Shown here piece by piece: positions 16,188 to 60,957 of a stretch of 64,000 nucleotides of DNA. Position 1 is the stretch's first letter, and each line of letters begins with the position of its first letter. The notes beneath the pieces are model-generated. The model was not told the DNA's origin. It saw nothing but the letters and a program-made list of their open reading frames with translations, and made no database searches. The stretch is from an uncultured Gemmatimonadaceae bacterium (GTDB taxonomy: Bacteria > Gemmatimonadota > Gemmatimonadetes > Gemmatimonadales > GWC2-71-9): the NCBI GenBank assembly GCA_964518955.1, contig CAZFHS010000008.1, positions 1,017 through 65,016 of the forward strand, read 5' to 3'. A program made the position numbers and the translations under genes.

Positions 16188-16223
16188 GATTGCGTTCAGA
16201 GTTGAAAACAATACACCAATTCA

Positions 16224-16519: not shown

Positions 16520-16906
16520 CTACCGGAATTCTCCTATTAGTCTTGCCACGACGGTGTCGTGAGCAGCGCGTGCCGCGATGAGCAGTGAGGCGGAACGCGA
16601 GCTGTCACCCTCCGCTCCGGAGACTTCGAGCTGACGTAGGAGCTCCGCAAGCTGTGTTGCACCCATGCTCGCGGCAGCCGACTTGTATGCGTGCGCTGAA
16701 GATCTGACTTCTTCGGGCGCGCTGGCCTCGACGGCCGATTGAATGGCACCCATCCGAATAGGGGCATCTTCGAGAAATGCCTCTACCAGTTCGTCAATGA
16801 TGTCCTCGAGTTCAGCCTCAGCCATCGCCCGTCGGAAGTCCGCGACCTCAAAGGATGCCATCTCGTTACTGACGTCGTTCGTGACTGTCCCGGCTGTATC
16901 TGTCAT
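16520..16906 (-). CDS. Hpt (histidine phosphotransfer) domain protein
   Basis: HxxKS motif (SSAHAYKSAAASMGATQLAELLRQLE) in a roughly 120-aa helical protein. It lies 13 nt downstream of the preceding response regulator gene. Confidence 0.8.
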   Translation of the reverse strand: MTDTAGTVTNDVSNEMASFEVADFRRAMAEAELEDIIDELVEAFLEDAPIRMGAIQSAVEASAPEEVRSSAHAYKSAAASMGATQLAELLRQLEVSGAEGDSSRSASLLIAARAAHDTVVARLIGEFR

Positions 16907-16919
16907 GACGTGATTCCCT

Positions 16920-17492
16920 CTAGGTTTCTAAGGTATCGAACTGCCTCAGCTGCGGCTCGATTCGTGACTGGTAACACTGGGGGCAGATGCCGTGCGTAAA
17001 TGTTGATTCGGTGCGGCTGGATATGTAGGTCTCTACGTCTTGCCAACGGTCGTTTGCGTCGCGGATCTTTCGGCAGTACGAACAGATAGGAAGCAAAGAC
17101 TCTAGTTCCTTAACCTCCGAATACAATCCGAGTATTCGCTCTGCAACACGTACTCTGGCGGCCAGTTCATCTCTATCGAGCGGTTTTCGGATGAAGTCGT
17201 CCGCACCTGCATCCATCGCACGTAGATAACACCGCTTGCCACCTAACACGGTGAGCATGATGATGTACGTATATGCCGGTCGATCTTCCGCCCGCACGGC
17301 TCTGCATAACTCCAGGCCGTCGAGCTGAGGCATCATCCAATCCACAATCAGCAATCGGGGGTGATCTTCTGAGTAGCGTTCCCAGGCAACTGCTCCATTG
17401 TCAGTTTCAACCACCTCATGTCCGAAAGATTCGAGTGTGCTTTTCAACAGCAGCCTCGCAACTCGGTCGTCTTCGGCAATGAGGATCTTCAT
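16920..17492 (-). CDS. Response regulator: REC + C-terminal 4-Cys tail (CxxC...CxxC)
   Basis: REC with DD, acceptor D (LIVDWMMP) and K (IRKP). Tail is LPICSYCRKIRDANDRWQDVETYISSRTESTFTHGICPQCY. Start set to the ATG at 17492, preceded by AGGGGGGA. Confidence 0.85.
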   Translation of the reverse strand: MKILIAEDDRVARLLLKSTLESFGHEVVETDNGAVAWERYSEDHPRLLIVDWMMPQLDGLELCRAVRAEDRPAYTYIIMLTVLGGKRCYLRAMDAGADDFIRKPLDRDELAARVRVAERILGLYSEVKELESLLPICSYCRKIRDANDRWQDVETYISSRTESTFTHGICPQCYQSRIEPQLRQFDTLET

Positions 17493-17590
17493 TACATCCC
17501 CCCTTAGCATCGATGCTCACCTACTCCGCAAACAAAGCAGATCAGGTTGAACCAAACCCTACGTATCCCGCAAATACCCGTTTCGTCTGA

Positions 17591-17618
17591 TTATCGGCGC
17601 GTCGCCGCAGATACCTTA
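17591..17618 (-). promoter_or_regulatory. Sigma28 (FliA)-type promoter for the REC(4-Cys)/Hpt pair
   Basis: Reverse strand reads TAAG-N16-GCCGATAA (perfect -10). The -35 overlaps the TAA stop of the upstream hybrid kinase. About 100 nt upstream of the ATG at 17492. Confidence 0.55.
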
Positions 17619-19838
17619 GCTGTCCACAGGATCAGCGACTTCGGTGTGGATCCACTTCTCGAGGACTTCGACCAGAACCTGACGTTTGATTGGTTTTATC
17701 ACGTGGTCGTCCATGCCGGCTGCCAGGCACTTTTCTCTGTTGCCGTTCGTGATGTTCGCGGTCAAAGCAACGATCGGTGTACGGCATGCGGCCCCTTCTA
17801 ACTCTCGGATGGCCCGGGTAGCCTGGTATCCATCCATGGTCGGCATTTCGCAGTCCATCAGGACAATTTCGTAACAACCGTTTTGCGCCGATCGGACCGC
17901 TTCACTGCCATCGCAGGCGATATCCACGACATATCCGAGTTTCTCGAGCGTTCGTACCATCACCTTTTGATTGACCGGATTGTCCTCGGCCAGCAGTACT
18001 TTGCCCCGATACGATATTGAGGCCGCTGTGCCGGTATTCTCGCTCTCGTCGCTGTTGGCGTTGTCCGATCGCCGCTGCTTTGAGCCCAACGCAGCCACCA
18101 GACAACGCGACAGACGATCACGTCGAATCGGTTTAGGCAGACACGCAGCGAAGTCTGCATTAGTCGCGGCCATCGATTCACCACTTGCACCGATGGGTGC
18201 CATCAATACCAGACGTGCGTCCCTCAACGACGGATCCGCCAGGATCTTGCGACCGAATTCTTCGCCATTCGTCTGCTGTAGTGAGTTGTCCACCATCACA
18301 ACATCATAGGGGGCGGCTTTCTTGATGGCGCTGAGCAGCATATCGATCGCTACATCCGGCGCGTCGGCAACGTCCGCGGCCATATTCCACCCACAAAGAA
18401 GTGCCTGTAGCGATTGGCCACTCGCGGGATGATCCTCCACGATGAGTACCCGTTTCTTTGCGAATTCTCCCGTCTGCAAAGCGGGTATGGCCGCGGGTCC
18501 CTTGTGCCGCCCCATCCTGACGGTGAACCAGAAAGTGCTACCTTCGCCCAGCTGGCTCCTTACTCCAATCTCTCCAGCCATTGCCGCAACCAGGCGCTGT
18601 GAGATCACCAATCCGAGTCCGGTACCCCCGTATTTTCTGGTAGTAGAACTGTCGGCCTGCACGAAAGCCTGGAAGATTCTTTCTTGCGCATCCAAGCTCA
18701 TACCCACACCCGTGTCGCTCACCTCGCCCCGTATCGTCACAGATTCGGAATCGCTGTCTACCACATCGAACCGTGCGACTATCTCTCCGCTTTCCGTGAA
18801 CTTCACCGCGTTACCCATGAGATTCAAAACGATTTGCCGCAAGCGCCCAGGATCACCTACCAGTGTGTCCGGTATCGCCGGTGCAACACTGCTCACCAAT
18901 TCCAGCTGCTTTCCGATCGCTCGCGCAGCGATGAGGTCCGCCGTTTCTTCGACGGTCGTGCGCAGATCGAACGGCACTTCCTCGAGTTCGAATGTGCCGG
19001 CTTCGATCTTGGAGAAGTCGAGGATGTCATTAATGATGTCCAACAGCGACTCGCCAGATACGCGAATAGTTTCAACGAAGTCCCGCTGTTCTTCACTCAG
19101 GCCCGTTTCCCTGAGCAACTCGGTCATTCCGATCACGCCGTTCATCGGAGTGCGAATCTCGTGGCTCATCGTGGCGAGAAACTCACTCTTGGCGCGAGTA
19201 GCTGCCTGCGCTTCTTCATTCGAGCGTTCTAATTCGAGCGTTCGTTTGGCTACCATTCCCTCCAAGTTTTTCGCGTAGCCACTCAACGAACCATAGAGGG
19301 ACAGGTTCTCGATCGCATTTGCGCAGTCAGCAAGTACGATCGAGGTGAATTTCTGCGAGGCTTCGAGTACGTAGTTACGATCCTTTTGCACGACGCCCAT
19401 GAACATCCCGACCACCCTCGACCGGGTAGCCAAAACGTGCAACAGCACCCTACCATCCATCATCTTTCCTGGAACTATCACCGGCCGATTTTGTCTCACA
19501 GCCCACGCGAACGTTCCGGATTCGATGTGCCTCTCCAACTCATTGATAAGTCGCGGTGAGAGTTCCGTGGGATCGAGTTCGATCGGAGAAAAGTCGAAAG
19601 TATCTGCATCGGCAATCCAAAAGCCCACCGCTTCGAAGTCGACTATCGATCTGAGTGTCGACGCAGCAGAGGCACAGATCGCGGCTGGGTCTGCATGTTC
19701 TGTGAGGTCTCGACGTGACCGGAACAACGCGACCACGGAATCGAGACACTCCAGTAGCCATTTGTTCATCCGGGTGGCGCTAAACTCAGCAGACACCTCA
19801 GTTTCGGGTACCGGACGCGAGGCCGGGTTCGCTGTCAT
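17616..19838 (-). CDS. Hybrid histidine kinase: GAF-like - HisKA/HATPase - REC - REC
   Basis: H-box [14 protein letters not shown], HATPase ([15 protein letters not shown]). Two receiver domains (VVMVDNSL; [13 protein letters not shown]). ATGA overlap with the upstream HDOD gene. Confidence 0.85.
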
Positions 19839-20689
19839 TCGGATTCCTCGAGAATCGTACGAACCGCTGCCGCGTATTGTTGGTCGATGTCAGTCAGTAT
19901 GCCGGTGAGAACGTCTTCGGATAGACCTAGTCGCTCCCAAGCGAACCCGGAGAGAGGTGGCACCCACCGCTCACCGCTACTTCCCATCAGCATTGAGTGC
20001 GCCAGTATGTCTGCCAGATGAATGACTGCCACTTCGACTTGAAATCGTGTGGCACGTGCGGGCCTGTGATGATTTGACACGGGTTCTTGCAATGAAACCG
20101 GGAGATTCCAATTAGACAGCAGAGCCTCACCCACTGCTGCATGGTCGTATCCCATGACCACTTCCTCGGCCTCGTGCAGCATCATCTGTTCATCTCGCGC
20201 GTGCTCGATCGCGGTGCGCGCACCGTCTGGGTCGGACATGAATACCAGTAGCTTCCCGATATCGTGCAACAATCCCGCGACGAAGTGCCGCTCCACATTG
20301 GGCGCTCGCAACTCGGTAGCAAGTGACCTTGCGCATACCCCGCACCCAATGCTGTGCTGCCAAAAACTGGACATGTCTACCAGTTCTTGAGGTACATCCT
20401 TGAACATGTCCACAACCGATGTGGCGAGAGCTAGGTCGTGTATCTGCTGAGTGCCGACAACCGTCAACCCTTGCCTCACAGATTCGATCGTGGAGGGGAA
20501 ACCATACATGGCGCTGTTCACGAGACGCAGCAGTCTGGCCGTGAGGCCGATGTCTTCACTAATGACAGCTCCAACGTCATCTGCTGAGCTGTACGGGTCT
20601 TCCATCACCTCTACCAATCTCGTGTAGATCGCCGGTAGGGACGCGATATTCGTAGACTTACGAACGAGGTCATCGATGTTAGGCGCCAT
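19835..20689 (-). CDS. HDOD domain protein
   Basis: Full-length HDOD pattern ([56 protein letters not shown]). Confidence 0.85.
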
Positions 20690-21017
20690 TGTTGCCTCTG
20701 CCGGCTATGCGGCGCGCGCATTCGTCTAGCAAGAGCGCCACCACTGGATGATCTATGTCGCAGTGCTTGAACAGTTCTCGTGCGGCAGCGGCATGCTGTG
20801 GCTCGACCACGAGGTCCTGAGGCGTGTCCTGGGATTCCTCTGCGGGACCGTTACCACCCACGATTTCAATATTCTGCACCCCCCAGATCTTGAACAACCG
20901 CAACTCCTTCTCGGCGAGTACTTTGCCCGCCTTCGCAAGCAGTTGGCCGTTTCTGTCAACGGCATCTGAGGCTAGCTGCATACCAGGATGCGCCTGCTCT
21001 AACCGAATCACACCCAT
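20679..21017 (-). CDS. Small protein carrying a GM-x-LA-x-D module (function unknown)
   Basis: Start set to the ATG at 21017 with GAGGAG 5 nt upstream; the longer ORF reaches 21071. The N-terminal ~50 aa share an ungapped pattern with the C-terminus of the MotB-coupled protein (23952-24119). Confidence 0.55.
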   Translation of the reverse strand: MGVIRLEQAHPGMQLASDAVDRNGQLLAKAGKVLAEKELRLFKIWGVQNIEIVGGNGPAEESQDTPQDLVVEPQHAAAARELFKHCDIDHPVVALLLDECARRIAGRGNNGA

Positions 21018-21121
21018 GACGGCTCCTCGGTTTCGAGGGTTGAGCCAAGTTGACCGCGTCGCCCAGCCCATTCATTGCGACAGCCCCTCACGGCGGACGT
21101 CGCGTTCCTTGTCAACTCAAA

Positions 21122-21149
21122 TTATCGGCTGTGCTAATCAGCTCCTTTA
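21122..21149 (-). promoter_or_regulatory. Sigma28-type promoter for the HDOD/hybrid-kinase operon
   Basis: Reverse strand reads TAAAGGAG-N12-GCCGATAA. About 105 nt upstream of the ATG at 21017. Confidence 0.6.
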
Positions 21150-21181
21150 ACCGCAGGTAGCAATCTCTAAGACGTCTTATC

Positions 21182-21209
21182 TCAAGCTTCTCAGCGTTCG
21201 GTCCGATAC
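21182..21209 (+). promoter_or_regulatory. Sigma28-type promoter for motAB
   Basis: TCAA-N16-TCCGATAC, about 55 nt upstream of the motA ATG. GGAGGA RBS at 21245-21250. Confidence 0.5.
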
Positions 21210-21263
21210 TTCCCCTAGACAGGGATTTTTTCTGATTTCTTAACGGAGGACAGGGACGCAAAC

Positions 21264-22124
21264 ATGCTCGCCATCATCGGCGTGTTGGTCGTCATTGTGT
21301 CAGTACTCGGCGGGTTCAGCCTGGCGGGAGGGCACCTCGCAGCGCTATTCCACGTATCGGAGTTCGTCGTAATCGGTGGTACTGCGCTGGGAACGATTAT
21401 GATATCGACGCCGAGGTCCATTCTGAAGGAGCTGTTCGCCAAACTCACGGGGGTGATCAAGCAGACTCCCTTCTCGAAGGACCTCTACCTCGAAGCTTTG
21501 AAGATGATATTCGAGTTGTTCCAAATTGCTCGGCGCGACGGGCTCGTGGCAATCGAATCGCATATCGAGCGCCCAGCAGAGAGTGAGGTATTCAAGAAGT
21601 ACTCCGCAGTGTCGTCACGTCATCATGCAATCACATTTCTGTGTGATTCCCTCCGCCTCGTCCTCGTCGGGAGTGTGCCACCCCACGATTTGGAAGCATT
21701 GATGGATGCGGACATTGATGTTCATCACGAACAGGAAGCGCGGCCTGTGAACGTGCTGCAAAAGGTCGGCGACGCCCTCCCGGGAATTGGTATCGTTGCG
21801 GCCGTGTTGGGCATCGTCGTCACGATGGGCGCGATCGCCGGGCCCGTAGAACATATCGGCGAGAAGGTGGGCGCTGCTCTGACCGGCACATTCCTCGGTG
21901 TGCTGCTTGCTTATGGCTTCGCTACTCCCCTGTCTAGTAGCATGGAACACCAGAACGCCGAGGAAGCGCGTTTTCATCATTTCATCAAAGCCAGCGTAGT
22001 GGCATTCGCAAAGGGTTTCGCTCCAATAGTCGCAACGGAATTTGCCCGCAGAGCGATCTTTGCCGAGGTGCGTCCATCGTTCGAGGAAATGGAAACCGCC
22101 TGCAAGAGCACGAGGGGCAAGTAG
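21264..22124 (+). CDS. motA: Flagellar stator protein MotA (E. coli MotA-type)
   Basis: 286 aa, collinear with MotA (MLxxxGxLVV start, LPGIGIVAAVLGIV, GTFLGVLLAYGF, ERPSFEEME). Confidence 0.9.
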   Translation: MLAIIGVLVVIVSVLGGFSLAGGHLAALFHVSEFVVIGGTALGTIMISTPRSILKELFAKLTGVIKQTPFSKDLYLEALKMIFELFQIARRDGLVAIESHIERPAESEVFKKYSAVSSRHHAITFLCDSLRLVLVGSVPPHDLEALMDADIDVHHEQEARPVNVLQKVGDALPGIGIVAAVLGIVVTMGAIAGPVEHIGEKVGAALTGTFLGVLLAYGFATPLSSSMEHQNAEEARFHHFIKASVVAFAKGFAPIVATEFARRAIFAEVRPSFEEMETACKSTRGK

Positions 22125-22128
22125 CGAC

Positions 22129-22953
22129 ATGAACAAGGACCGTGAAGCCCCGCTACGAATCATCGTGCGCAAGAAGCGCAGCGATCATGGTGGGCATCAT
22201 GGTGGTGCCTGGAAAGTCGCCTTCGCCGACTTCATGACCGCAATGTTTGCACTGTTCCTCGTGCTCTGGCTCGTCAACCAGAGTTCCGAAGTACGGTCGT
22301 CGATAGCCGGTTACTTCGCCAATCCAATGGGATTCCCGGGTGAGGCTGGAAGCTCACTGTTGCCCGCGGACGGAACGGTGGCTTCAGATATCCGCCCGGT
22401 GCTGCTGGAAACATTCAGCCTGCGTCGGCTTCAACTGCGCGAGCTCGAGGCGAGGTTGCGCACCCGAATGGACGACCTCCCCGGATTGGAGTCAGTATCG
22501 GCAAACATCGAAATGGAGATGGTTGATGAGGGATTGAGGATTCAACTGCTCGAGGATTCGTCCGGCGTATTCTTCGAGACTGGAAGCAGTGATCCGAAGA
22601 CAGAAGGGCTGCAGGTGCTGCAAATCCTCGGGACAGAGCTGGCCCTGCTTCCAAACACCGTTGTCATTGAAGGTCACACAGACTCCCGCCAGTATGCTAT
22701 GGGTAACCGGTATACCAACTGGGAGCTGAGCGCCGACCGTGCTAACGCCGCTCGCCGTATTCTCACCGCAAACGGATTGGATGACTCGAAGATTGGCCAA
22801 ATTCGTGGTCTTGCAGACCGGGAGCTGCGGGACCCTGATAACCCCTTGTCCCCCGGCAACCGACGGGTCACCATAACAATTCAAGAGATCGGGCAAGGCC
22901 AACCTCCCGACTCCAGTGCTACCTCCATTCGAGTTCGTCGGGGCGCGCCATGA
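22129..22953 (+). CDS. motB: Flagellar stator protein MotB (OmpA-like C-terminus)
   Basis: HGGAWKVAFADFMTAMFALFLVLW carries the conserved TM Asp. OmpA-like peptidoglycan-binding domain (NWELSADRANAARR). Start at the ATG at 22129, 4 nt after the motA stop. Confidence 0.9.
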   Translation: MNKDREAPLRIIVRKKRSDHGGHHGGAWKVAFADFMTAMFALFLVLWLVNQSSEVRSSIAGYFANPMGFPGEAGSSLLPADGTVASDIRPVLLETFSLRRLQLRELEARLRTRMDDLPGLESVSANIEMEMVDEGLRIQLLEDSSGVFFETGSSDPKTEGLQVLQILGTELALLPNTVVIEGHTDSRQYAMGNRYTNWELSADRANAARRILTANGLDDSKIGQIRGLADRELRDPDNPLSPGNRRVTITIQEIGQGQPPDSSATSIRVRRGAP

Positions 22954-24122
22954 CACCAGCTGTAACGGTACTGTTGGCGTGCGACGATCCCTTCGCAACG
23001 CGAGGACTCTCGGAGGAGGTGCGTCAGATCCAGGATATGGATCTAACGGTGACAATCGACGGAGATGGTGTCCTTGACCTGGTGTTGGAGCTGTCCCCCG
23101 ATCTAATCATATGCGGAGCGACAGTGGGCGACGCCGACGGCCTCGAGATTTGCCGTTCCATTAAATCCGACGGCCGTATCGCGCATGCGCACTTAGTGTT
23201 CCTCGCTCCTCATGGTGATCGGGACGCAAAAGACGATGCGCTGCAGGCGGGCATTGACGCGTTCTTGACCGTGCCGCTGGACCCCGAAGACGTACGCGCG
23301 ATGCTCAAGCAGGCTGAACGGTTGGCATCCCAACGTGACCAGATTTTACAGAGCGATGTCCGACTCAAGACCGCGGGCCGCGACACCGAGCAGCTGGTGA
23401 CTTTTCTGGTCAGCCTCATTGAGGCCCAAATGTCCGGTGCCGCCAGCCGCGGCGAGACCCTGGCGAACCTCGCAGGCAAGATCGCCGACAGGTTCAAGAT
23501 ACCGTCTCATCTACTCCAGGACCTCGATACCGCCGCACGCCTACAAGAGATCGGAAAGATCGTTGACCCGGCGAATGCGCCGCACGTGGCGCTCGAACAT
23601 AGACCTGCATGCACCGGCCCCTACTACACAGTCGTATCGGCTGCCGTGCTGGCTCAGTTGGACCTGCTTTCTGGAGCGGCTGAGGTAGTCGGCGCAATGT
23701 GCGAGAATTGGGACGGCACAGGGCTGCCTGACAGACTCCGCAAAGGACAGATCCCGCTTCGATCTAGGATTCTCAGAGTCCTCGCCGATTTCCTCGACGA
23801 AATGCCCGACCCCGACCTGCCTAAGGCGGCAAACGTCCTTTCACAGCTTAAGGCCCAAGGCGGCACTCTATACGACCCACTTGTGATAGTGCACCTTCGC
23901 TCGGTGCTCGGAGATGAGGACGGTTCAGATATAGCTGACGGCAACACCCAGCTTACTGTGGCGGACCTGAAGGAGGGTATGGTGCTCGCCGAAGACATGT
24001 TCACGAGCTCAGGGGTGATGCTCCTGGCACGCGGAGCGGTGCTGACAGATGCTACGCTGGAAGTCATCAAGTACCGCAATCAGGTGGATCCTGTCGTTTC
24101 TGGAGTGTCGGTGTGTTGCTAA
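22950..24122 (+). CDS. Pseudo-receiver + degenerate HD-GYP-like domain + GM-x-LA-x-D module; translationally coupled to motB
   Basis: ATGA overlap with motB. REC fold with Gly at the acceptor position (DLIICGATVGDADG), Ala for T/S (LAPHG) and Val for Lys (LTVPLD). HD-GYP-like block has LQEIGK in place of LHDIGK and MCENWDGTGLP in place of HHERWDGSGYP. Confidence 0.75.
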   Translation: MTPAVTVLLACDDPFATRGLSEEVRQIQDMDLTVTIDGDGVLDLVLELSPDLIICGATVGDADGLEICRSIKSDGRIAHAHLVFLAPHGDRDAKDDALQAGIDAFLTVPLDPEDVRAMLKQAERLASQRDQILQSDVRLKTAGRDTEQLVTFLVSLIEAQMSGAASRGETLANLAGKIADRFKIPSHLLQDLDTAARLQEIGKIVDPANAPHVALEHRPACTGPYYTVVSAAVLAQLDLLSGAAEVVGAMCENWDGTGLPDRLRKGQIPLRSRILRVLADFLDEMPDPDLPKAANVLSQLKAQGGTLYDPLVIVHLRSVLGDEDGSDIADGNTQLTVADLKEGMVLAEDMFTSSGVMLLARGAVLTDATLEVIKYRNQVDPVVSGVSVCC

Positions 24123-24215
24123 TGGTATTCGCAGCACCTTGCGCTTTGAGTTGGAACCGCCTACTCTGGCACGGCATCCCCTCATTCTTGCTGGATCTTC
24201 AGCACGTTAGGAGTC

Positions 24216-24983
24216 GTGCCGGCAATGTTGGAACCCGATAAACTCACGTCATATCTGTCTGGGTTGAGCAACGACCAGATCCGAGACATGCTGGCCAAAT
24301 TGGATCGCACCAACCAAGGGCACAGCATGTTTAGAGGAGTTGCACACGACCTCAGCAATGCCTCACAGGCGCTTTCCATGGGAGCGCCCGCGGTTCAGGC
24401 CGGAGATATCGAAGCCGAGAAATGGTTGTCGATGACGCATTGGGTTGACGAGAAGATGAACCGCGCCGCTGCAGTAGCGCGTGACTTTGGAACTCTCGGA
24501 GCCGACGAAGAACATCCTGTCAGCGTTCATGAGGTCGTCAGCACGGTGTTTGATTGGCAGCAACTTCAACGAGCACAACCGGTCGGCAACATCCAATGTC
24601 AGATGGCGCCACACATGCGCCCAGTTCGAGCTTCAGATCGACGACTCCGCCAGATCCTTCTCGCGTTGATTGCCAATTCCAAGGAATCGATTGAGGATCA
24701 GCAGGAAGCAAAGATACTGCTGGAGGCAAATCCAACGGACGGCGGAGTGACAATAGCAGTAGAAGACTCCGGCTCCGGCATCGATCCCGACATTAGAGCC
24801 AAGGTTTTCGACCCATTTTTCACCACAAAGGAGCCTGAGCTACATGTGGGCCTCGGTTTGACGGTGGCTCACGCATCAGCAGAGAGTTGGGGTGGAAGTC
24901 TCACTATCGATGAGCCGAAGGGCGGCGGCACCAGGGCGGAGCTGCTCCTGCCCTACTGGTCCAATCAACCGTCCACTGCGTAG
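24216..24983 (+). CDS. Minimal soluble histidine kinase (DHp + HATPase only)
   Basis: H-box FRGVAHDLSNASQAL; N/G1/F/G2 boxes (LIANSKES, DSGSGID, FDPFFTTK, GLGLTVA). The start could instead be the ATG at 24225. Confidence 0.7.
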   Translation: MPAMLEPDKLTSYLSGLSNDQIRDMLAKLDRTNQGHSMFRGVAHDLSNASQALSMGAPAVQAGDIEAEKWLSMTHWVDEKMNRAAAVARDFGTLGADEEHPVSVHEVVSTVFDWQQLQRAQPVGNIQCQMAPHMRPVRASDRRLRQILLALIANSKESIEDQQEAKILLEANPTDGGVTIAVEDSGSGIDPDIRAKVFDPFFTTKEPELHVGLGLTVAHASAESWGGSLTIDEPKGGGTRAELLLPYWSNQPSTA

Positions 24984-31136: not shown

Positions 31137-31568
31137 TTAAGTCTCTGCTAGTGTTGAGTTTACGAGCTGGGTGCCAGCCTGGTGCAGTGCTTGGAGAGGA
31201 ATGTACTCGTTGCCGCTACCGGCAAAAACTTCCCGCTGATGAGGGCTGCCGTTGCCGGTCGAGCTGGCAGTCAAGAACGCCACCGCATCCTGAGATAGGT
31301 TTGCCGTATTTGCTATCGTGGAGCTCGACGTACCGAACCGAGCTAGCACTCGGACCAGATTGCGGCGCACCACCCAGGTGCGATAGAGCTTCACAAGCGA
31401 AACTAGCCATAGGACGCAAGACACTGTCGAAAGCACAACCACAGTCGAGGGTAGGTTTCGAATCTGTCCGACTAGGCCGGCCATCGTTGGCCATGCACTG
31501 ACCGCGCTCGACGCCAATAGCAACGTCGCCGTCGTGACGACCACTGTGGTCCAGACTCTTCTCCTCAT
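31137..31568 (-). CDS. Hypothetical membrane protein translationally coupled to fliA
   Basis: ATGA overlap with the fliA stop and GGAGG 7 nt upstream. Two TM helices, then a Ser/Thr-rich soluble tail. No family recognised. Confidence 0.45.
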   Translation of the reverse strand: MRRRVWTTVVVTTATLLLASSAVSAWPTMAGLVGQIRNLPSTVVVLSTVSCVLWLVSLVKLYRTWVVRRNLVRVLARFGTSSSTIANTANLSQDAVAFLTASSTGNGSPHQREVFAGSGNEYIPLQALHQAGTQLVNSTLAET

Positions 31569-32329
31569 GTCACCGCCTCCAACAGTTCAGCGTTGGCTCT
31601 GAGACGACCCAGCGCCTGGCTCCTTATTTGCGAGACTCTCGACTCCGTGAGATGCAGTACCTCACCTACCTGTCGCAAATTGAGATTCTCGTAGTAGTAG
31701 AGCGAGAGGACGATTCGTTCCTTCTGTGGCAACCCTGCGATCGCTTCTCTCAAACAGGCAAGATTTTCGTCGTGGGTAATCCTGCTGGACGGGTCCTCTG
31801 CATCGGGATCACAGATTATTTCGTCCAATCGAACAGACCCTGGTGCGAAATCTGGTGCGGAGCTATCCAGCGGGATCGTCTGTGAGCGGTCGCCGTCCAC
31901 CCACCGACGCCAATACGCATCCATGTCAACTTCCAGGAACGCAGCTATCTCCGTATGCGACGGCGCCCTACCCAGTTGTGCTTCTAGCTGGGCAGTTGCT
32001 TCGGCGAGTTTCCGCGTCCTGCTGCGTGCCGTACGAGGTACCCAATCGCGACTCCGCAGGTCATCGAGCATCGCCCCGCGAATGCGCTGCATCGCGTAGG
32101 TGCTGAACACGTGTCCGCGCGATATATCGAAACCCTCTAGCGCTTGGATCAAGCCCAGTGTTCCAGCACTGACCAAATCTTCCAGCTCTACGGTTTGGGG
32201 TATCTTGGCCGCCAGTTCCCGGGCGCTGTAGTGAACCAACCCGAGGTATTGATCGAGTAGGTTGGAGCGTGCCTCCGAGGAACCGGTTTCCTTGTATTTC
32301 TTCCAGAGTTCGTCTGTCACTGTCGTCAT
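31565..32329 (-). CDS. fliA: Flagellar sigma factor FliA (sigma28)
   Basis: Sigma70-family regions 2-4 (LIQALEGFD, RDWVPR, ERIVLSLYYYENLNLRQVGEVLHLTESRVSQIRSQAL). Start at the ATG at 32329. Confidence 0.9.
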   Translation of the reverse strand: MTTVTDELWKKYKETGSSEARSNLLDQYLGLVHYSARELAAKIPQTVELEDLVSAGTLGLIQALEGFDISRGHVFSTYAMQRIRGAMLDDLRSRDWVPRTARSRTRKLAEATAQLEAQLGRAPSHTEIAAFLEVDMDAYWRRWVDGDRSQTIPLDSSAPDFAPGSVRLDEIICDPDAEDPSSRITHDENLACLREAIAGLPQKERIVLSLYYYENLNLRQVGEVLHLTESRVSQIRSQALGRLRANAELLEAVT

Positions 32330-32348
32330 GGCATTCTCCCCACGCAAA

Positions 32349-33182
32349 TCAACTGTGCGTGGTTGACCCTGCAAAGAATTCGGGCTGCTCAGTTACGATG
32401 CCGCGCAACGTCTGCGCTGCCTTGCCTAGCGAACCCCACCGCCTCGAGCTGTCCGGACTCCTAGCTGCAGATTGCAGCTCGGGGTCGTCTGGCACGGCTC
32501 CGATGTAACTCAGTTGGAGGTTGAGGAATCGCTCACCCGCGTGGGCGAGTCTGTCGAAGGCGGCTCGCCCTTCGCTCTCGTCATTCACCTGGTTGACCAG
32601 TACGCCGATCCTCAAACCGGGCACTCGGGAGCTCACTATCTTGATCACGGCGTACGCATCTGCGAGCGCGGTTGGCTCGGCCATAGTGACAATCACCAGA
32701 CCTGACGCCCTGATCGTACAGAGCCTTACGACGTCCTCGATTGAGGGACCGGAATCAACGACAACCGAATCAAAGCCCTGATAGAGGTTGCTCAAGCTGT
32801 AGTGGAGTCTTGCCCGGTCGATCGAGTTGAGCGAGTACACCGACTCCACACCCGAGTCGCTGGGTAGGAGCCAGAGGTTTTCGCCCACAGCACTAATCAT
32901 GTCTTCGGGTCCAACCTCTCCCGCGAGCAACGCATCTAGGCGGCCGAATTTCGAGCAGCCTAGTAGGATGTGCAGGTTGCCGAGGTTCTGAGAGCCGTCC
33001 AACAACAACACTCGTCTCCCGCTGTCGCCCAGTACCGAACCCAGTGTTACCGCAAGGACCGACTTGCCGACACCACCTTTGCCGCTGGCGAGCACTACGG
33101 CCGCCGGCCCCGCGTCCCTGTCCGCAAGCGCCGAATCCATCAGCATGGCGCTATCGTTCGCTGATTGACCGATTTGCATCAT
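32349..33182 (-). CDS. flhG: MinD/ParA-type ATPase FlhG (FleN/YlxH)
   Basis: Deviant Walker A SGKGGVGKS. Located between flhF and fliA, with an ATGA overlap with flhF. Confidence 0.85.
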   Translation of the reverse strand: MMQIGQSANDSAMLMDSALADRDAGPAAVVLASGKGGVGKSVLAVTLGSVLGDSGRRVLLLDGSQNLGNLHILLGCSKFGRLDALLAGEVGPEDMISAVGENLWLLPSDSGVESVYSLNSIDRARLHYSLSNLYQGFDSVVVDSGPSIEDVVRLCTIRASGLVIVTMAEPTALADAYAVIKIVSSRVPGLRIGVLVNQVNDESEGRAAFDRLAHAGERFLNLQLSYIGAVPDDPELQSAARSPDSSRRWGSLGKAAQTLRGIVTEQPEFFAGSTTHS

Positions 33183-54754: not shown

Positions 54755-54829
54755 GATTTGACATTAAGGATCCTCCTAATTGTGTCCTCAGTTACAGCAA
54801 AACTGGGAATTCCCATCCGAAATTAAGCC

Positions 54830-54856
54830 TCAAGTTCCCCGCAAGGTTGCCGATAA
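54830..54856 (+). promoter_or_regulatory. Sigma28-type promoter for flagellin
   Basis: TCAAGTTC-N11-GCCGATAA, about 70 nt upstream of the fliC ATG. Confidence 0.7.
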
Positions 54857-54927
54857 AGTGAAGTGTCGGCAGGAAATCCGGTACTTGGCAGAAGCCAGAC
54901 AACCACAACCCTAGAAGGGGAAAAACC

Positions 54928-56584: not shown

Positions 56585-56640
56585 TGCCGTAGCGAATTGA
56601 CACGAATTCCTGGTCCAGAGTTGACACAATCACGGAAACC

Positions 56641-56668
56641 TAAAGTATTGAGTCCAGTGTGCCGATAG
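56641..56668 (+). promoter_or_regulatory. Sigma28-type promoter for flgM
   Basis: TAAAGTAT-N12-GCCGATAG, about 80 nt upstream of the ATG at 56750. Confidence 0.65.
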
Positions 56669-56749
56669 TAGATAGTACAGTAGGCAGGTTCACGTCCTTC
56701 AGCTGAAAGGGACCGCGACCCGCCTGTCAGAGTTTATGCCGGAGGCAAT

Positions 56750-57061
56750 ATGACGGTCGAACCAACAAATCGAAGTCATGTACAACCTTCAAAAACGAGC
56801 AAGCCGAAAGACGCTGCCGCCGAAAAACAACCCGACTCCAAGCCCAAACAGGCATCGAGAATCCCGAACACCGTCGTGGACAAGGTGGAAGTTTCTTCCG
56901 CCGCACAGGAACTGCACGAACTAACCGGTTCTGAGCAAATCGATGCCAACACAGTTCCGACTGAGCGTATGCAGGAGATTGTGAAGCGCGTCGCAGACGG
57001 GTTTTATGACCAACCGGAAGTTCTCGATGAGACGGCGAAACGCGTGGCGGACGACATATAG
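56750..57061 (+). CDS. flgM: Anti-sigma28 factor FlgM
   Basis: 103 aa with a disordered N-terminus. C-terminus ERMQEIVKRVADGFYDQPEVLDETAKRVADDI is typical of FlgM. GGAGG RBS. Confidence 0.7.
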   Translation: MTVEPTNRSHVQPSKTSKPKDAAAEKQPDSKPKQASRIPNTVVDKVEVSSAAQELHELTGSEQIDANTVPTERMQEIVKRVADGFYDQPEVLDETAKRVADDI

Positions 57062-57144: not shown

Positions 57145-58200
57145 TTACACCATTGCCAGGACTTCGACGGGCGAACTCTGCCCGCGACGCTTGGCTTTCG
57201 TTTTTGTGGGCTGTTTCACCAAAATCCTGTATGAGGGCCGTTTCGATTTTTCGCGATAAAGGGCCTGGTCTGCTTTCCTCAACAGATCCTCGAGGCATTC
57301 GTCGGAACCCGTCACTACCGTAGTACCAATGCTGAGCGAAAGATCATATTTGAGCTCACCCGATTCATTCGCTCGGACGAGGCAATCCTCGATCTTCTGC
57401 TTCAGCGCTGCCTTTCCGAAATCGTCGATGTCGAATGCGAGCGCGACGAACTCGTCTCCGCCAAACCGTGCCACGATATCCGATTCCCTGAAACAGGACT
57501 TGAGCAATTCGGCGGTTTTGGCAATTGCGCGGTCTCCCTCGTCGTGACCGTATGTATCGTTTATCTCTTTGAGTCCGTCTAGGTCGGCACTCAATATCAG
57601 CGAACGTTTGCGCTGACGCCGCGTCATCCGCACGTGCGAATCAGCCAGCGTCCAGAACCCCCGCCGATTCAGCAATCCCGTCAACGGGTCCGTCATCGAA
57701 AGGTCTCGCAACTGCAGCACCTGACGGTGACGATCGACTGCGCACCTGAGTGAGTGTGCCAGCGAATGAGGCGTCACCTGTTCCCTGATCAGATAGTCTT
57801 GAGCACCACGGCGTACAGCCTCCTGTGCCCGCGGTTCATCCTCCATTCCGACAACGACCACGATCGGAATCCGTTGTGCCAGTGTAGAAAGCATCGAGAA
57901 CGAATCCAGCCCTGTAACGTCGACCAGACTAAGATCCATCATAACCGCATCGAACTTTTCACGACCGAGTCGATCGACACCTGCGCTGACTCGATCCACG
58001 GTTTCTATTCTGAGGTCACCGTAACAGGAGATTTGTATCATTTGCCTGAAGAAAACCGCGTCGGAATCGTTGGCTGACATGATCAGTATCCGCGAGCACG
58101 GCGTTTGTTCGTCGACGAAAGTCGCGAACGGTATCGAATCTCTTAGCGCTGCCTGGCCTGTGGATAGCATCTGTACACTCTGCTCCAATCTCTCGTTCAC
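57145..58200 (-). CDS. Response regulator diguanylate cyclase (REC - GGDEF)
   Basis: REC (AVMMDLSL), coiled linker, GGDEF domain with an intact active site (RFGGDEF). RxxD I-site lies 5 residues upstream (RESD). Confidence 0.88.
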   Translation of the reverse strand: MNERLEQSVQMLSTGQAALRDSIPFATFVDEQTPCSRILIMSANDSDAVFFRQMIQISCYGDLRIETVDRVSAGVDRLGREKFDAVMMDLSLVDVTGLDSFSMLSTLAQRIPIVVVVGMEDEPRAQEAVRRGAQDYLIREQVTPHSLAHSLRCAVDRHRQVLQLRDLSMTDPLTGLLNRRGFWTLADSHVRMTRRQRKRSLILSADLDGLKEINDTYGHDEGDRAIAKTAELLKSCFRESDIVARFGGDEFVALAFDIDDFGKAALKQKIEDCLVRANESGELKYDLSLSIGTTVVTGSDECLEDLLRKADQALYREKSKRPSYRILVKQPTKTKAKRRGQSSPVEVLAMV

Positions 58201-58288
58201 TCAGAATAGATTGTTTCAGGCCACCCATTTCGCAGAAACCGTGCCGAGGCGTTCTAGGCCACCGGACATGCCTCTAAATAATTACCAC

Positions 58289-58308
58289 ACAATGATTTAC
58301 ATCATTGT
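58289..58308. promoter_or_regulatory. 20-bp palindrome in an AT-rich spacer upstream of the REC-GGDEF gene
   Basis: ACAATGAT-TTAC-ATCATTGT (perfect 8-bp arms) inside the 171-nt gap between the REC-HDOD stop and the REC-GGDEF start. Operator or hairpin; undecided. Confidence 0.3.
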
Positions 58309-58371
58309 TCCTACTAGATTCACGCACTCGTCCGGGCCCCCAAAAGCCCATAGAGCGGAAGATACTGCCGG

Positions 58372-59571
58372 TCAGTCAGCGGGTTCGAACAAGTCTCGTA
58401 TCGACTCCCTCCACTCTTCCAGGCGGTCCGCCACACCAACCGAGGCCAAGTAGTCATGGTTCAAGAGAGCAATGGCCCCATTTTCGGTCTGGGGTTCCAA
58501 TTCCCTGACGAGCACGTCCGCGATGTGAACGGCTGTTGCTGAATCCAGCTCCGGAGACGCTAAACCGTCAGGAGCATGGTGATGCGCTACTGCCTCCACT
58601 ACCGCACGCGGCAGTCCCCAAATACCTAGCAAATACCCACCGATTTCCGCGTGCGTGGTGTCCAGTTCTTCCTGTTCGACCGCATACATTGGTCGCCGCT
58701 CGGAACCCGCCCTTTGAACGACCGTCTTCAGTATTTCGGGCAATTTCGCCGCGAGCACTAGCTTGCCGACGTCATGCAGCATGCCGGCCATGAATGAATC
58801 ATCCGCTTCCGCTTTGCCGCGCAGTATCGCAGCTGACGCACGGGCAACGCACAAAGAATGTTGTTGCTCTACGGCCGCTGAGAAACCCGGAATATCCCCG
58901 TTCTGTTTGAACGCCTCGAACACCCCGGCCGTGAGCGCCATGCTCTTGATGACGTTGAACCCGAGGCGCGCGACAGCCTCATCGATACTCGCAGTATCGA
59001 CCTGGGCTCCGAAAAACGCCGAACGCACCATCTGAAGTACCTTCGCACTCATCCCCGGATCCTCTTTGAGGATCTCGGCCACTTCAACCAACGAGGTCTC
59101 CTCACGCGCAAGCAGTTCCACTAGCCGTGTGTACACCTTAGGCGCACTCGGAAGCGAGTCGATCCCGCCGACTAGGCTCTGCAGCTTTGTGTCAGCCATC
59201 AGCTGCCTCAGACCGCACAGCCGGTCTAGCGTGGCTTCGAGGAGCACGACGTCGAACGGCTTGGCCAGGAACTGGTGGGCAACCTTGGCTGCTCGGAGTG
59301 CGGCGCTTCGATCGCTTTGTCCGGACAGAATGATACGAACCACACCAGGGTCGATATCGCGCACTCGCTCGAGCAGTCCAGCTCCGTCCATGCCGGGCAT
59401 TCGCATGTCCGAGACGACGATATCGAAGCTCGCGGTTTCCATAACCTGAAGAGCTGCCGTGCCGCAATCAGCGAACGCCAGCTCCCAATCGGGCCTGCGC
59501 CGTGTGAGCAATCTTCTAATACCGTCCCTAAGGAATGGTTCGTCGTCGACGAACAACAGCCTCGTACTCAT
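58372..59571 (-). CDS. Response regulator with HDOD output domain (REC - HDOD)
   Basis: REC with intact D/S/K (VVSDMRMPGMDG, LAKP). HDOD (LPSAPKVYTRLVELL, AGMLHDVGKL, AHHHAP). ATGA overlap with the upstream kinase. Confidence 0.85.
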   Translation of the reverse strand: MSTRLLFVDDEPFLRDGIRRLLTRRRPDWELAFADCGTAALQVMETASFDIVVSDMRMPGMDGAGLLERVRDIDPGVVRIILSGQSDRSAALRAAKVAHQFLAKPFDVVLLEATLDRLCGLRQLMADTKLQSLVGGIDSLPSAPKVYTRLVELLAREETSLVEVAEILKEDPGMSAKVLQMVRSAFFGAQVDTASIDEAVARLGFNVIKSMALTAGVFEAFKQNGDIPGFSAAVEQQHSLCVARASAAILRGKAEADDSFMAGMLHDVGKLVLAAKLPEILKTVVQRAGSERRPMYAVEQEELDTTHAEIGGYLLGIWGLPRAVVEAVAHHHAPDGLASPELDSATAVHIADVLVRELEPQTENGAIALLNHDYLASVGVADRLEEWRESIRDLFEPAD

Positions 59572-60833: not shown

Positions 60834-60912
60834 CTAGTCCTTCCTCTGAGTTGCCCCACCCTCCTTGGTCAGTACAAACACGCCGATCGACGAGACCGGG
60901 GATGTTGATTAA

Positions 60913-60939
60913 GGATCGGCAAGATCCAGGGTTTCTTGA
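60913..60939 (-). promoter_or_regulatory. Sigma28-type promoter for the PAS-kinase/REC-HDOD operon
   Basis: Reverse strand reads TCAA-N15-GCCGATCC, about 80 nt upstream of the ATG at 60833. Confidence 0.5.
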
Positions 60940-60957
60940 GGATCGTTGGGAAGGCGC

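What the first reader, a model, noticed from the sequence alone, without database searches (positions are those of the whole stretch)
21122..21209. Two mirror-image pairs of back-to-back sigma28 promoters, each joining a stator operon to a signalling operon
At 21122-21209, a minus-strand TAAAGGAG-N12-GCCGATAA box (HDOD/kinase operon) and a plus-strand TCAA-N16-TCCGATAC box (motAB) are arranged back to back, with their -35 elements about 33 bp apart. At 60913-60984 the same layout recurs. There a minus-strand TCAA-N15-GCCGATCC box (PAS-kinase/REC-HDOD operon) faces a plus-strand TAAAGAAA-N11-GCCGATCT box (PomAB-type operon), with the -35 elements about 18 bp apart.

Each of the two stator sets therefore appears to be co-regulated with its own private signalling module from a shared divergent FliA-type control region. 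This suggests stator-specific control, such as stator selection or engagement, rather than one common pathway.
Basis: seen in the sequence. Interest (0 to 1): 0.65.

Follow-up and report, generated by a model that had tools for sequence, protein, structure and literature searches.

The report
Back-to-back FliA promoters at stator operons
In this Gemmatimonadota flagellar region, both stator (motor) operons and the signalling operons beside them carry conserved late-flagellar (sigma-28/FliA) promoters. This is an ordinary kind of wiring seen in a little-studied phylum, and it gives no evidence for stator-specific control.

Summary
All four boxes exist exactly as described. They belong to a set of eight FliA-type promoters in the window. 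The other four sit upstream of flagellin, a probable flgM, a REC-Hpt pair and a 49-codon ORF.

Statistics:
- The a-priori pattern TMAA-N15-16-KCCGAT occurs 7 times, all in noncoding DNA, against 0.07 expected there.
- An external matrix from E. coli FliA ChIP-seq sites ranks the HDOD-operon box 4th and the pomA box 5th of ~128,000 positions.
- That matrix places the PAS-kinase box 36th and the motA box 348th, both within noise.
- A lineage matrix trained only on fliC and flgM ranks those two boxes 7th and 8th.

Conservation: both weak boxes are held in relatives while their spacers vary freely. fliA is encoded in the window.

The "private, stator-specific control" reading is not supported:
- One sigma factor serves all eight promoters.
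- The distance between paired promoters varies (16-74 nt).
- motAB orthologues keep their promoter without the HDOD operon beside them.
- Two relatives have deleted pomAB yet keep both promoters and the signalling operon.

Verdict: real, well-supported FliA promoters and a new member of a known kind. Modest interest.

The parts
21121..21150 (-). FliA-type promoter of the small-ORF/HDOD/hybrid-kinase operon: TTAAAG-N15-GCCGATAAT
   Evidence: Sequence. Rank 4 (21.0 bits) with the E. coli ChIP-seq matrix. Conserved in L001/L041 and in L042 (TTCAAG-N15-ACCGATAAT) with different spacers.
21181..21210 (+). FliA-type promoter of motA-motB-(REC-HD_5)-HATPase: CTCAAG-N15-TCCGATACT, with a weak -10
   Evidence: Rank 348 with the E. 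coli matrix, but rank 7-8 with lineage matrices not trained on it (0.09 chance hits per window). CTCAAG-N14/15-(G/T)CCGATAC is conserved in L001, L002, L003, L004, L014 and L042 with free spacers.
60912..60940 (-). FliA-type promoter of the PAS-kinase/REC-HDOD(/REC-GGDEF) operon: CTCAAG-N14-GCCGATCCT
   Evidence: Rank 36 with the E. coli matrix. Rank 7-8 with lineage matrices (0.02 chance hits per window). Conserved in L016, L017, L043 and L044.
60957..60985 (+). FliA-type promoter of the PomA/MotP-like stator operon: CTAAAG-N14-GCCGATCTT
   Evidence: Rank 5 (16.3 bits) with the E. coli matrix. Conserved in L016, L017, L020, L043 and L044.
17590..17619 (-). FliA-type promoter of the REC-Hpt pair: CTAAGG-N15-GCCGATAAT (not in the finding)
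   Evidence: Top hit of the window with the E. coli matrix, 22.1 bits. Conserved in L001/L041 with a different spacer.
54829..54857 (+). FliA-type promoter of the flagellin gene: CTCAAG-N14-GCCGATAAA (internal positive control)
   Evidence: Rank 3 with the E. coli matrix. The flagellin call comes from Pfam.
56640..56669 (+). FliA-type promoter of probable flgM: CTAAAG-N15-GCCGATAGT (internal positive control)
   Evidence: Rank 2 with the E. coli matrix. Conserved in L016, L045 and L046.
62968..62997 (-). FliA-type promoter of a 49-codon ORF convergent with pomB: CTCAAG-N15-GCCGATAAT
   Evidence: Rank 6 with the E. coli matrix. The promoter and ORF are conserved in L016 although the upstream DNA differs.
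31565..32374 (-). fliA (sigma-28), last regulatory gene of the flhA-flhF-flhG-fliA run
   Evidence: TIGR02479 FliA_WhiG, 237.9 bits against a cutoff of 189.6. Neighbours are FHIPEP, an SRP54-type GTPase and a MinD/ParA-type ATPase.
56750..57061 (+). Probable flgM (anti-sigma-28 factor), 103 aa
   Evidence: Pfam FlgM is the best hit but sits below threshold (18.5 bits against 25). Four of six orthologues hit FlgM. The best PDB profile hit is 'Negative regulator of flagellin synthesis', E = 0.11.
20679..21017 (-). 112-aa first gene of the HDOD operon, unknown family
   Evidence: No Pfam, NCBIfam or PDB match. It has 16 homologues only. The start at 21017 is supported by a GAGGAG ribosome-binding site and by a frame-breaking indel upstream in L001.
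19835..20689 (-). Standalone HDOD protein, 284 aa
   Evidence: PF08668, 217.5 bits.
17616..19838 (-). GAF-HisKA-HATPase-REC hybrid histidine kinase (two Response_reg stretches)
16520..17510 (-). REC (16920-17510) and Hpt (16520-16906) genes
21264..24983 (+). motA (21264-22124), motB (ORF 22042-22953, true start uncertain), REC-HD_5 (22950-24122) and an HATPase-only protein (24216-24983)
   Evidence: TIGR03818 MotA1, 350 bits against a cutoff of 303.8. Pfam domains. The four-gene order is conserved in L001, L002 and L004; in L003 the first three genes were detected.
57145..60833 (-). PAS kinase (59568-60833), REC-HDOD (58372-59571) and REC-GGDEF (57145-58200)
   Evidence: Pfam domains. The trio is conserved in L016 and L043-L046; in L017 the locus ends inside the REC-HDOD gene.
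61058..62700 (+). PomA/MotP-like (61058-61834) and MotB-like (61831-62700) stator genes
   Evidence: Pfam MotA_ExbB and MotB_plug/OmpA. The best NCBIfam hits are MotP and PomA, but both fall below the equivalog cutoffs.

Best explanation
The two intergenic regions each hold two independent, outward-facing sigma-28 (FliA) promoters. They are four members of a set of at least eight FliA-type promoters in this 64-kb Gemmatimonadota flagellar region. The local consensus is CT(A/C)AAG-N14-15-GCCGATA(A/C)T.

Inferred mechanism, taken from the established FliA/FlgM paradigm:
1. fliA is expressed with the early flhA-flhF-flhG genes.
2. FliA is held inactive by the probable FlgM until the hook-basal body is complete.
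3. FliA-RNA polymerase then fires all of these promoters together.

This would deliver flagellin, flgM, both stator sets, three two-component/HDOD/GGDEF signalling operons and one tiny ORF at the time the motor becomes functional.

Shown here: the motifs, their statistical excess, their position and orientation, their conservation, and the presence of fliA.

Inferred: actual FliA dependence, transcription starts and the FlgM checkpoint.

The back-to-back layout is simply what two divergent operons with short leaders look like. The promoters are not a single fixed-geometry control element, and the wiring puts both stators under one common signal rather than a stator-specific one.
For: - All four boxes are present as written.
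- fliA is confirmed above the curated cutoff.
- The a-priori pattern gives 7 hits, all noncoding, against 1.05 expected window-wide and 0.072 expected in noncoding DNA. There were no double-strand hits in 5000 shuffles of either region.
- An external matrix from 25 strong E. coli FliA ChIP-seq sites (PMC4183435 Table 2) puts six window sites at ranks 1-6 of 127,920 positions. All six are upstream of genes in the right orientation, and they include fliC and flgM.
- A lineage matrix trained only on fliC and flgM puts all eight sites at ranks 1-8. Expected chance hits per window are 0.09 and 0.02 at the scores of the two weak boxes.
- Phylogenetic footprints: the motA box is held in six relatives with 57-95% MotA identity. 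The HDOD box is held in L001/L041/L042. The pomA and PAS-kinase boxes are held in L016, L017, L043 and L044. In each case spacers and flanks diverge.
- No sigma-70-consensus promoter occurs in either region and no Rfam element occurs in the window.
- Precedents: FliA-dependent motAB, yhjH and ycgR, and the divergent fliC/fliDST FliA pair, in E. coli. FliA-dependent PmotA in P. putida.
Against: - No transcription data exist for this organism.
- Under the E. coli matrix the motA box (3.1 bits, rank 348) and the PAS-kinase box (8.7 bits, rank 36) cannot be told apart from coding-sequence noise.
- Their -10 elements, TCCGATAC and GCCGATCC, depart from GCCGATAA.
- FlgM is only a sub-threshold match.
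- Only 64 kb of this genome could be scanned, so the true genome-wide background is unmeasured.
- The YTMAAG hexamer was noticed after the fact. The main statistics use the a-priori tetramer pattern and external or held-out matrices instead.
Confidence: 0.78

Rival explanations
1. Each stator set has its own private signalling module, co-regulated with it from a shared divergent FliA control region, and the module acts specifically on that stator (selection or engagement).
For: - Every contig seen that carries the small-ORF/HDOD operon has it divergent from motAB.
- The PAS-HK operon is divergent from pomAB in the window, L016 and L017.
- Signalling genes recur next to motA in other forms: EAL-HDOD in L003, REC plus Ser/Thr kinase in L004 and PAS-GGDEF in Acidobacteria.
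- HDOD proteins affect swimming in several species.
- In P. aeruginosa, c-di-GMP influences the localisation of its two stator sets (abstract of bioRxiv 10.1101/483339).
Against: - One sigma motif serves all eight promoters, so transcription gives no stator specificity.
- The inter-promoter distance is not conserved and no conserved operator lies between the promoters.
- L002-L004 keep motAB and its promoter without the HDOD operon beside it.
- L043 and L044 have lost pomAB but keep the PAS-HK operon and both promoters.
- L019 and L020 keep pomAB without the kinase operon beside it.
- The PAS-HK operon is linked at least as constantly to flgM (in the window, L016 and L043-L046, with flaF/flbT beyond it in four of these) as to pomAB.
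Confidence: 0.15
2. Only the two strong boxes (the HDOD operon and pomAB) are FliA promoters. The motA and PAS-kinase boxes are conserved for another reason, such as another sigma factor or a DNA-binding regulator that recognises CTCAAG / CCGAT(A/C)C.
For: - The E. coli matrix scores are 3.1 and 8.7 bits, within the range of coding-sequence hits.
- Both have non-consensus -10 elements.
Against: - Their -35 hexamer is identical to that of the flagellin promoter (CTCAAG) at the same spacing.
- In relatives the motA -10 reads GCCGATAC, closer to consensus (L002, L014, L042).
- They rank 7-8 of about 128,000 positions with matrices that never saw them.
- The -10 variant GCCGATC(C/T) is shared with the strong pomA box.
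- No sigma-70 or sigma-54 alternative occurs in either region.
- FliA-dependent motA promoters are the rule in E. coli and P. putida.
Confidence: 0.1
3. The boxes are chance matches in a sequence where GCCGAT is common.
For: GCCGAT alone occurs 67 times in the window against 51 expected.
Against: - The bipartite pattern is about 100-fold enriched in noncoding DNA and absent from coding DNA.
- All sites are oriented towards a downstream gene.
- All eight are conserved in relatives.
Confidence: 0.01

Closest known systems
E. coli/Salmonella class 3 FliA promoters (motAB-cheAW, fliC, flgMN, yhjH/pdeH, ycgR)
   Same: - Same bipartite motif, TAAA/TCAA-N15-GCCGATAA.
- Same target classes: flagellin, flgM, stator genes and c-di-GMP signalling genes (PMC4183435).
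- Six of the eight window sites score within the range of the E. coli training sites (6.4-24.6 bits, median 18.8).
   Different: - Here the preferred -35 is CT(A/C)AAG, and spacing is 15 or 16 nt from the tetramer to the -10.
- Two promoters have -10 variants (TCCGATAC and GCCGATCC) that an E. coli matrix rejects.
- The signalling targets are HDOD/two-component operons rather than an EAL enzyme and a PilZ brake.
- The phylum is Gemmatimonadota and the fliA context is flhF-flhG-fliA.
E. coli fliC / fliDST divergent FliA promoter pair
   Same: Two outward-facing FliA promoters sit in one intergenic region. Their motif centres are 120 bp apart, with the ChIP peaks displaced in opposite directions (Table 2 of PMC4183435).
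   Different: Here the pairs are much tighter (16-30 nt between -35 hexamers). They join a stator operon to a signalling operon rather than two filament operons.
Pseudomonas dual stators MotAB/MotCD with c-di-GMP control (FlgZ, SadC)
   Same: - Two stator sets serve one flagellar system.
- PmotA is FliA-dependent in P. putida.
- flgZ expression depends on FliA and FleQ (PMC3913639).
- c-di-GMP influences the localisation of the two stator sets (abstract of bioRxiv 10.1101/483339).
   Different: - In Pseudomonas, motCD lies inside the flhA...fliA-che operon and is boosted by an internal FliA promoter. It is not divergent from a signalling operon.
- No HDOD operon is known to pair with either Pseudomonas stator.
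- Here both stators have their own FliA promoter.
HDOD-domain motility modulators (Xanthomonas GsmR, P. syringae PSPTO_4229, P. protegens PFL_0554/5871, C. jejuni Cj0248, SadB)
   Same: - HDOD proteins, both standalone (~280 aa) and REC-HDOD, are genetically tied to swimming.
- The window encodes both architectures.
   Different: - Mechanisms are unknown in every case.
- A full-text search for HDOD together with FliA found three papers. In the two whose passages were read, neither reports FliA control of an HDOD gene.
- Here HDOD operons carry conserved FliA-type promoters and sit next to stator genes.

Membership tests
FliA (sigma-28) dependent promoter | Bipartite motif TAAA/TCAA - ~15 nt - GCCGATAA | tested here: met
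   All four boxes match, with tetramer-to-(-10) spacing of 15 or 16 nt. Two have a degenerate -10 (TCCGATAC, GCCGATCC).
FliA (sigma-28) dependent promoter | Scores above background with a matrix from experimentally bound FliA sites | tested here: inconclusive
   Met for the HDOD box (rank 4, 21.0 bits) and the pomA box (rank 5, 16.3 bits). Not met for the PAS-kinase box (rank 36, 8.7 bits) or the motA box (rank 348, 3.1 bits) with the E. coli matrix. All four pass with held-out lineage matrices.
FliA (sigma-28) dependent promoter | Cognate sigma factor encoded in the genome | tested here: met
   31565-32374 (-) matches TIGR02479 at 237.9 bits against a cutoff of 189.6.
FliA (sigma-28) dependent promoter | Same motif upstream of canonical late genes (flagellin, flgM) in the same genome | tested here: met
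   fliC at 54829-54857 and probable flgM at 56640-56669.
FliA (sigma-28) dependent promoter | Located upstream of a gene and oriented towards it; conserved in orthologous regions | tested here: met
   The -10 elements lie 54-104 nt from the start codons. The boxes are conserved with free spacers in L001-L004, L014, L016, L017 and L041-L044.
FliA (sigma-28) dependent promoter | Transcription start downstream of the -10, and loss of expression without FliA | not testable with these tools
   No transcriptome or genetics is available for this uncultured lineage.
FliA/FlgM checkpoint | Anti-sigma-28 factor FlgM present | tested here: inconclusive
   For 56750-57061, Pfam FlgM is the best hit but sits below the gathering score (18.5 against 25). 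Four of six orthologues hit FlgM. The PDB profile hit to FlgM has E = 0.11.
MotA/MotB proton-type stator (MotA1, TIGR03818) | Equivalog model above cutoff; MotB plug plus OmpA-like domain partner | tested here: met
   350.1 bits against 303.8. MotB_plug and OmpA are present.
PomAB / MotPS sodium-type stator | Equivalog model above cutoff; sodium dependence | tested here: not met
   The best hits are MotP at 207.6 bits (cutoff 394) and PomA at 200.1 bits (cutoff 341). 'PomAB-type' is therefore a resemblance only. Ion specificity is not testable here.
HDOD domain proteins | PF08668 above the gathering score | tested here: met
   19835-20689 scores 217.5 bits, 58372-59571 scores 165.4 bits and 14022-16211 scores 128.8 bits.
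Single shared divergent control region (one regulatory element serving both operons) | Fixed geometry, or a conserved element between or overlapping the two promoters | tested here: not met
   Hexamer-to-hexamer distances are 30, 31, 49 and 48 nt at locus 1 and 16, 17, 74 and 16 nt at locus 2. The DNA between the boxes is not conserved.

The most novel reading that the evidence does not exclude
The HDOD-containing two-component operons are dedicated regulators of individual stator types in Gemmatimonadota. The small-ORF/HDOD/hybrid-kinase/REC-Hpt relay would act on MotAB, and PAS-kinase/REC-HDOD/REC-GGDEF would act on the PomA-like stator. Each would be made together with its stator under FliA and would control which stator engages the rotor. 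That would give HDOD domains their first defined mechanistic role.
Probability: 0.12. Interest if true: 0.7.

Novelty: new member of a known kind. Interest (0 to 1): 0.3.

Why it matters
The result extends the FliA/sigma-28 late-gene paradigm, with an almost unchanged promoter motif, to Gemmatimonadota. I found no published description of flagellar regulation in this phylum in the library searched.

It also places two stator systems and three HDOD/two-component/GGDEF operons in the predicted FliA regulon. That gives a concrete expression context for HDOD proteins, whose link to motility is repeatedly seen genetically but not understood mechanistically.

It does not reveal a new regulatory principle. 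FliA-driven stator genes, FliA-driven c-di-GMP genes and divergent FliA promoter pairs are all known from E. coli and Pseudomonas.

Tried and rejected
- **Sigma-70 promoters.** A consensus scan of both intergenic regions found none.
- **Sigma-54 promoters.** There is no enrichment in the window and no site in either region. One good site lies upstream of fliL only.
- **Riboswitch or other structured RNA in the leaders.** Rfam at gathering thresholds gave 0 hits in the whole window.
- **GCCGAT alone as a signal.** Rejected: 67 occurrences against 51 expected.
- **E. coli FliA matrix as the sole judge.** It validates only two of the four boxes. It was supplemented with held-out lineage matrices and footprinting.
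- **Recent duplication as the origin of the two pairs.** Rejected. MotA and the PomA-like protein fall in different NCBIfam families. The two HDOD proteins are about 29% identical. The intergenic regions share only the boxes.
- **Identity of the 112-aa first gene of the HDOD operon.** No Pfam, NCBIfam or PDB match, and no similarity to the C-terminus of the REC-HD_5 protein.
- **N-terminal extension of that ORF to 21071.** Rejected because L001 has a frame-breaking indel there.
- **Two contigs from JGI sample 3300042731.** No DNA could be fetched; only the gene order was usable.
Full report
**1. Observation**

- TAAAGGAG-N12-GCCGATAA on the minus strand at 21122-21149.
- TCAA-N16-TCCGATAC on the plus strand at 21182-21209.
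- TCAA-N15-GCCGATCC on the minus strand at 60913-60939.
- TAAAGAAA-N11-GCCGATCT on the plus strand at 60958-60984.

The gaps between the paired -35 tetramers are 32 and 18 nt. All four boxes share a longer -35 hexamer, YTMAAG.

**2. Genes**

- Locus 1, minus strand: a 112-aa ORF with no known family (start at 21017), a standalone HDOD protein, a GAF-HisKA-HATPase-REC hybrid kinase, then REC, Hpt, an HDOD-GAF kinase and a REC-kinase-REC-PilZ fusion.
- Locus 1, plus strand: motA (TIGR03818, above cutoff), motB, a REC-HD_5 protein and a 255-aa HATPase-only protein.
- Locus 2, minus strand: a PAS kinase, REC-HDOD and REC-GGDEF.
- Locus 2, plus strand: a stator pair whose A subunit is closest to MotP/PomA but falls below the equivalog cutoffs. 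'PomAB-type' is therefore a resemblance, not a demonstrated membership.
- Between the loci lies a complete flagellar cluster. It includes flhA-flhF-flhG-fliA, with fliA confirmed by TIGR02479 at 237.9 bits against a cutoff of 189.6.
- The window also holds flgL, flagellin, flbT, flaF and a 103-aa ORF that is a probable flgM. FlgM is consistently its best hit in Pfam and PDB, but always below threshold.
- The organism is a Gemmatimonadota bacterium. The closest MAG has 95% MotA identity.

**3. Is it more than chance?**

GCCGAT alone is uninformative: 67 copies against 51 expected. The bipartite pattern is informative.
- The a-priori pattern TMAA-N15-16-KCCGAT occurs 7 times against 1.05 expected in dinucleotide shuffles. 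All 7 fall in the roughly 7% of the window that is noncoding.
- Shuffling only the intergenic segments gives 0.072 expected.
- Neither divergent region produced hits on both strands in any of 5000 shuffles.

The three hits outside the finding are upstream of flagellin (54829-54857), upstream of the probable flgM (56640-56669) and upstream of a 49-codon ORF after pomB (62968-62997). A CTAAGG variant precedes the REC-Hpt pair (17590-17619). The window therefore holds eight such sites, each pointing at a gene.

**4.

I built a matrix from the 25 strong (FAT>4) E. coli FliA ChIP-seq sites in Table 2 of PMC4183435 and scanned all 127,920 positions.
- The six best distinct sites are REC-Hpt, flgM, fliC, the HDOD-operon box (21.0 bits), the pomA box (16.3 bits) and the small-ORF box. 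All six are noncoding and correctly oriented.
- The PAS-kinase box ranks 36th (8.7 bits) and the motA box ranks 348th (3.1 bits). Both fall among hits inside coding sequence.

Lineage matrices give a different answer.
- A matrix trained only on the canonical targets fliC and flgM places all eight sites at ranks 1-8.
- A matrix trained on every family except motA and PAS-kinase scores those two at 18.1 and 19.6 bits, against 14.5 for the next best position.
- At those scores the expected number of chance hits per whole window is 0.09 and 0.02.

**5. Conservation**

*motA box.* It reads CTCAAG-N14/15-(G/T)CCGATAC in L001 (95% MotA identity), L002 (83%), L003 (70%, with GGCGATAC), L004 (66%), L014 (57%) and L042. 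The spacers are unrelated. The -10 lies 51-54 nt from the start codon in the window, L001, L041 and L042.

*HDOD-operon box.* It is kept in L001/L041 and in L042 (TTCAAG-N15-ACCGATAAT).

*Locus 2.* Both boxes are kept in L016, L017, L043 and L044. The pomA box is also kept in L020.

*Extra sites.* The flgM, REC-Hpt and small-ORF sites are conserved as well.

In every alignment the boxes are conserved islands in diverged DNA. Neither region has a sigma-70-consensus promoter, a sigma-54 site or any Rfam element.

**6. What it is and how it most likely works**

These are FliA-type late-flagellar promoters.

Inferred from the established FliA/FlgM paradigm: FliA is made with the early flhA-flhF-flhG genes and is held by FlgM until the hook-basal body is complete. 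It then directs RNA polymerase to all eight promoters. Flagellin, flgM, both stator sets and the neighbouring signalling operons would therefore appear together.

Shown here: the motifs, their excess over chance, their placement, their conservation and the presence of fliA.

Not shown: transcription starts and FliA dependence.

**7.

The 'FliA-type' part holds. The 'shared control region' and 'private, stator-specific' parts do not.
1. One sigma motif drives everything, which is a common signal rather than a stator-specific one.
2. The two promoters of a pair are independent modules. The distance between hexamers is 30, 31, 49 and 48 nt at locus 1 and 16, 17, 74 and 16 nt at locus 2. Nothing between them is conserved.
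3. The divergent HDOD operon is a clade-specific addition. All contigs seen with the 112-aa gene have it divergent from motAB, and that gene family has only 16 members. L002-L004 keep motA-motB-REC-HD_5 and its promoter with other neighbours: a GH109 enzyme, an EAL-HDOD protein, and a REC plus Ser/Thr kinase.
4. L043 and L044 (81% and 78% PAS-kinase identity) are a natural experiment. pomAB has been deleted, leaving a 59-81 codon stub that is 94% and 85% identical to the PomA N-terminus. Both back-to-back promoters and the whole PAS-HK/REC-HDOD/REC-GGDEF operon remain. That operon is linked at least as constantly to flgM (and, where the locus extends far enough, flaF/flbT) as to pomAB.
5. They are conserved across L001-L004.

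Association of stator genes with c-di-GMP-type signalling genes is widespread. In Acidobacteria, for example, a PAS-GGDEF gene overlaps the motA start. A general motor link is therefore plausible, but specificity is not shown.

**8. Comparison with what is known**

- FliA-dependent motAB-cheAW, fliC, flgMN, yhjH and ycgR are textbook in E. coli.
- E. coli fliC and fliDST form a divergent FliA promoter pair with motif centres 120 bp apart.
- In P. putida, PmotA is FliA-dependent, and FliA boosts motCD from an internal promoter.
- flgZ expression depends on FliA and FleQ.
- c-di-GMP influences the localisation of the two stator sets in P. aeruginosa (abstract).
- HDOD proteins modulate swimming in Xanthomonas, Pseudomonas and Campylobacter by unknown mechanisms.
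- A full-text search for HDOD together with FliA found three papers. In the two whose passages were read, neither reports FliA control of an HDOD gene. No paper describing flagellar regulation in Gemmatimonadota surfaced.

**9. Verdict**

I put that at about 0.85 for the strong boxes and about 0.7 for the motA and PAS-kinase boxes.

This is a new member of a known kind: the FliA regulon of an under-studied phylum, with HDOD/two-component operons among its targets. The stator-specific control idea remains a speculation that several observations here weaken. Interest is modest.

Noticed in passing
window 62761-62997 (-): A strong FliA-type promoter (CTCAAG-N15-GCCGATAAT, 62968-62997) drives a 49-codon ORF (62761-62910, GTG start after GGAGGAG). 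The ORF is convergent with the 3' end of pomB. Both promoter and ORF are conserved in L016 (64% aa identity) although the upstream DNA differs. It has no family match.
   Followed up: partly
window 17590-17619 (-): The best E. coli-matrix FliA hit of the whole window (22.1 bits) lies in the 105-nt gap between the hybrid kinase and the REC-Hpt genes. It is conserved in L001/L041 with a different spacer. The REC-Hpt pair therefore appears to have its own FliA promoter inside the signalling cluster.
   Followed up: partly
window 22950-24983 (+): The motAB operon continues into two more genes. One is a REC-HD_5 protein whose HD-GYP motifs look degenerate by eye (LQEIGK where HD-GYP proteins have HDxGK; WDGTGLP in place of GYP). 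The other is a 255-aa protein with only an HATPase_c domain. motA-motB-REC-HD_5 with convergent flgK is conserved in L001-L004; the HATPase gene and flgN were detected in L001, L002 and L004.
   Followed up: partly
L043 3032-3500 and L044 2510-2910: In two relatives pomAB has been deleted, leaving a 59-81 codon N-terminal pomA stub (94% and 85% identical to the window's PomA). Both back-to-back FliA boxes remain intact, and an acyl-CoA dehydrogenase gene now lies beyond the stub.
   Followed up: yes
window 41426-41441 (-) and 41645-41674 (-): A near-consensus sigma-54 site (TGGTACggcagTTGCT) lies 56 nt upstream of fliL. A weak FliA-like match (TTCAAG...GCAGATAGA) lies further upstream in the same flgE-fliL gap. 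This may indicate dual control of the fliL operon, as is known for fliL in E. coli.
   Followed up: no
window 12057-13991 (-): A hybrid kinase with an unusual REC-HisKA-HATPase-REC-PilZ architecture sits at the end of the locus 1 signalling cluster. This suggests c-di-GMP input into that phosphorelay.
   Followed up: no
window 55807-57061 (+): FlbT and FlaF, flagellin regulators as I recall best known from Alphaproteobacteria, coexist here with FliA and a probable FlgM. They lie directly between the flagellin gene and flgM. The flaF-flgM linkage is conserved in L016, L045 and L046.
   Followed up: no
window 20679-21017 (-): The 112-aa first gene of the HDOD operon has no Pfam, NCBIfam or PDB match and only 16 homologues (68-100% identity). 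Wherever its context could be seen, it is divergent from motA.
   Followed up: partly
window 31137-31568 (-): A 143-aa ORF with no family match overlaps the fliA stop by 4 nt, so it is probably co-transcribed with fliA.
   Followed up: no
L003 1489-2715 (+); L005 5075-6007 (+); L014 5253-5597 (-): Other signalling genes sit next to MotA1-type stator genes in other lineages. L003 has an EAL-HDOD protein in tandem upstream of motA. Acidobacteria (L005) have a PAS-GGDEF gene that overlaps the motA start. L014 has a divergent REC-domain gene with its own CTCAAG-N14-CCCGATAC box.
   Followed up: partly
window 21035-21060: In the 5' leader of the HDOD operon, a segment (GAGCCAAGTTGACCG on the plus strand) is nearly identical between the window and L001 but not conserved in L042. 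Its function is unknown, and it is not coding, because L001 has a frame-breaking indel nearby.
   Followed up: no
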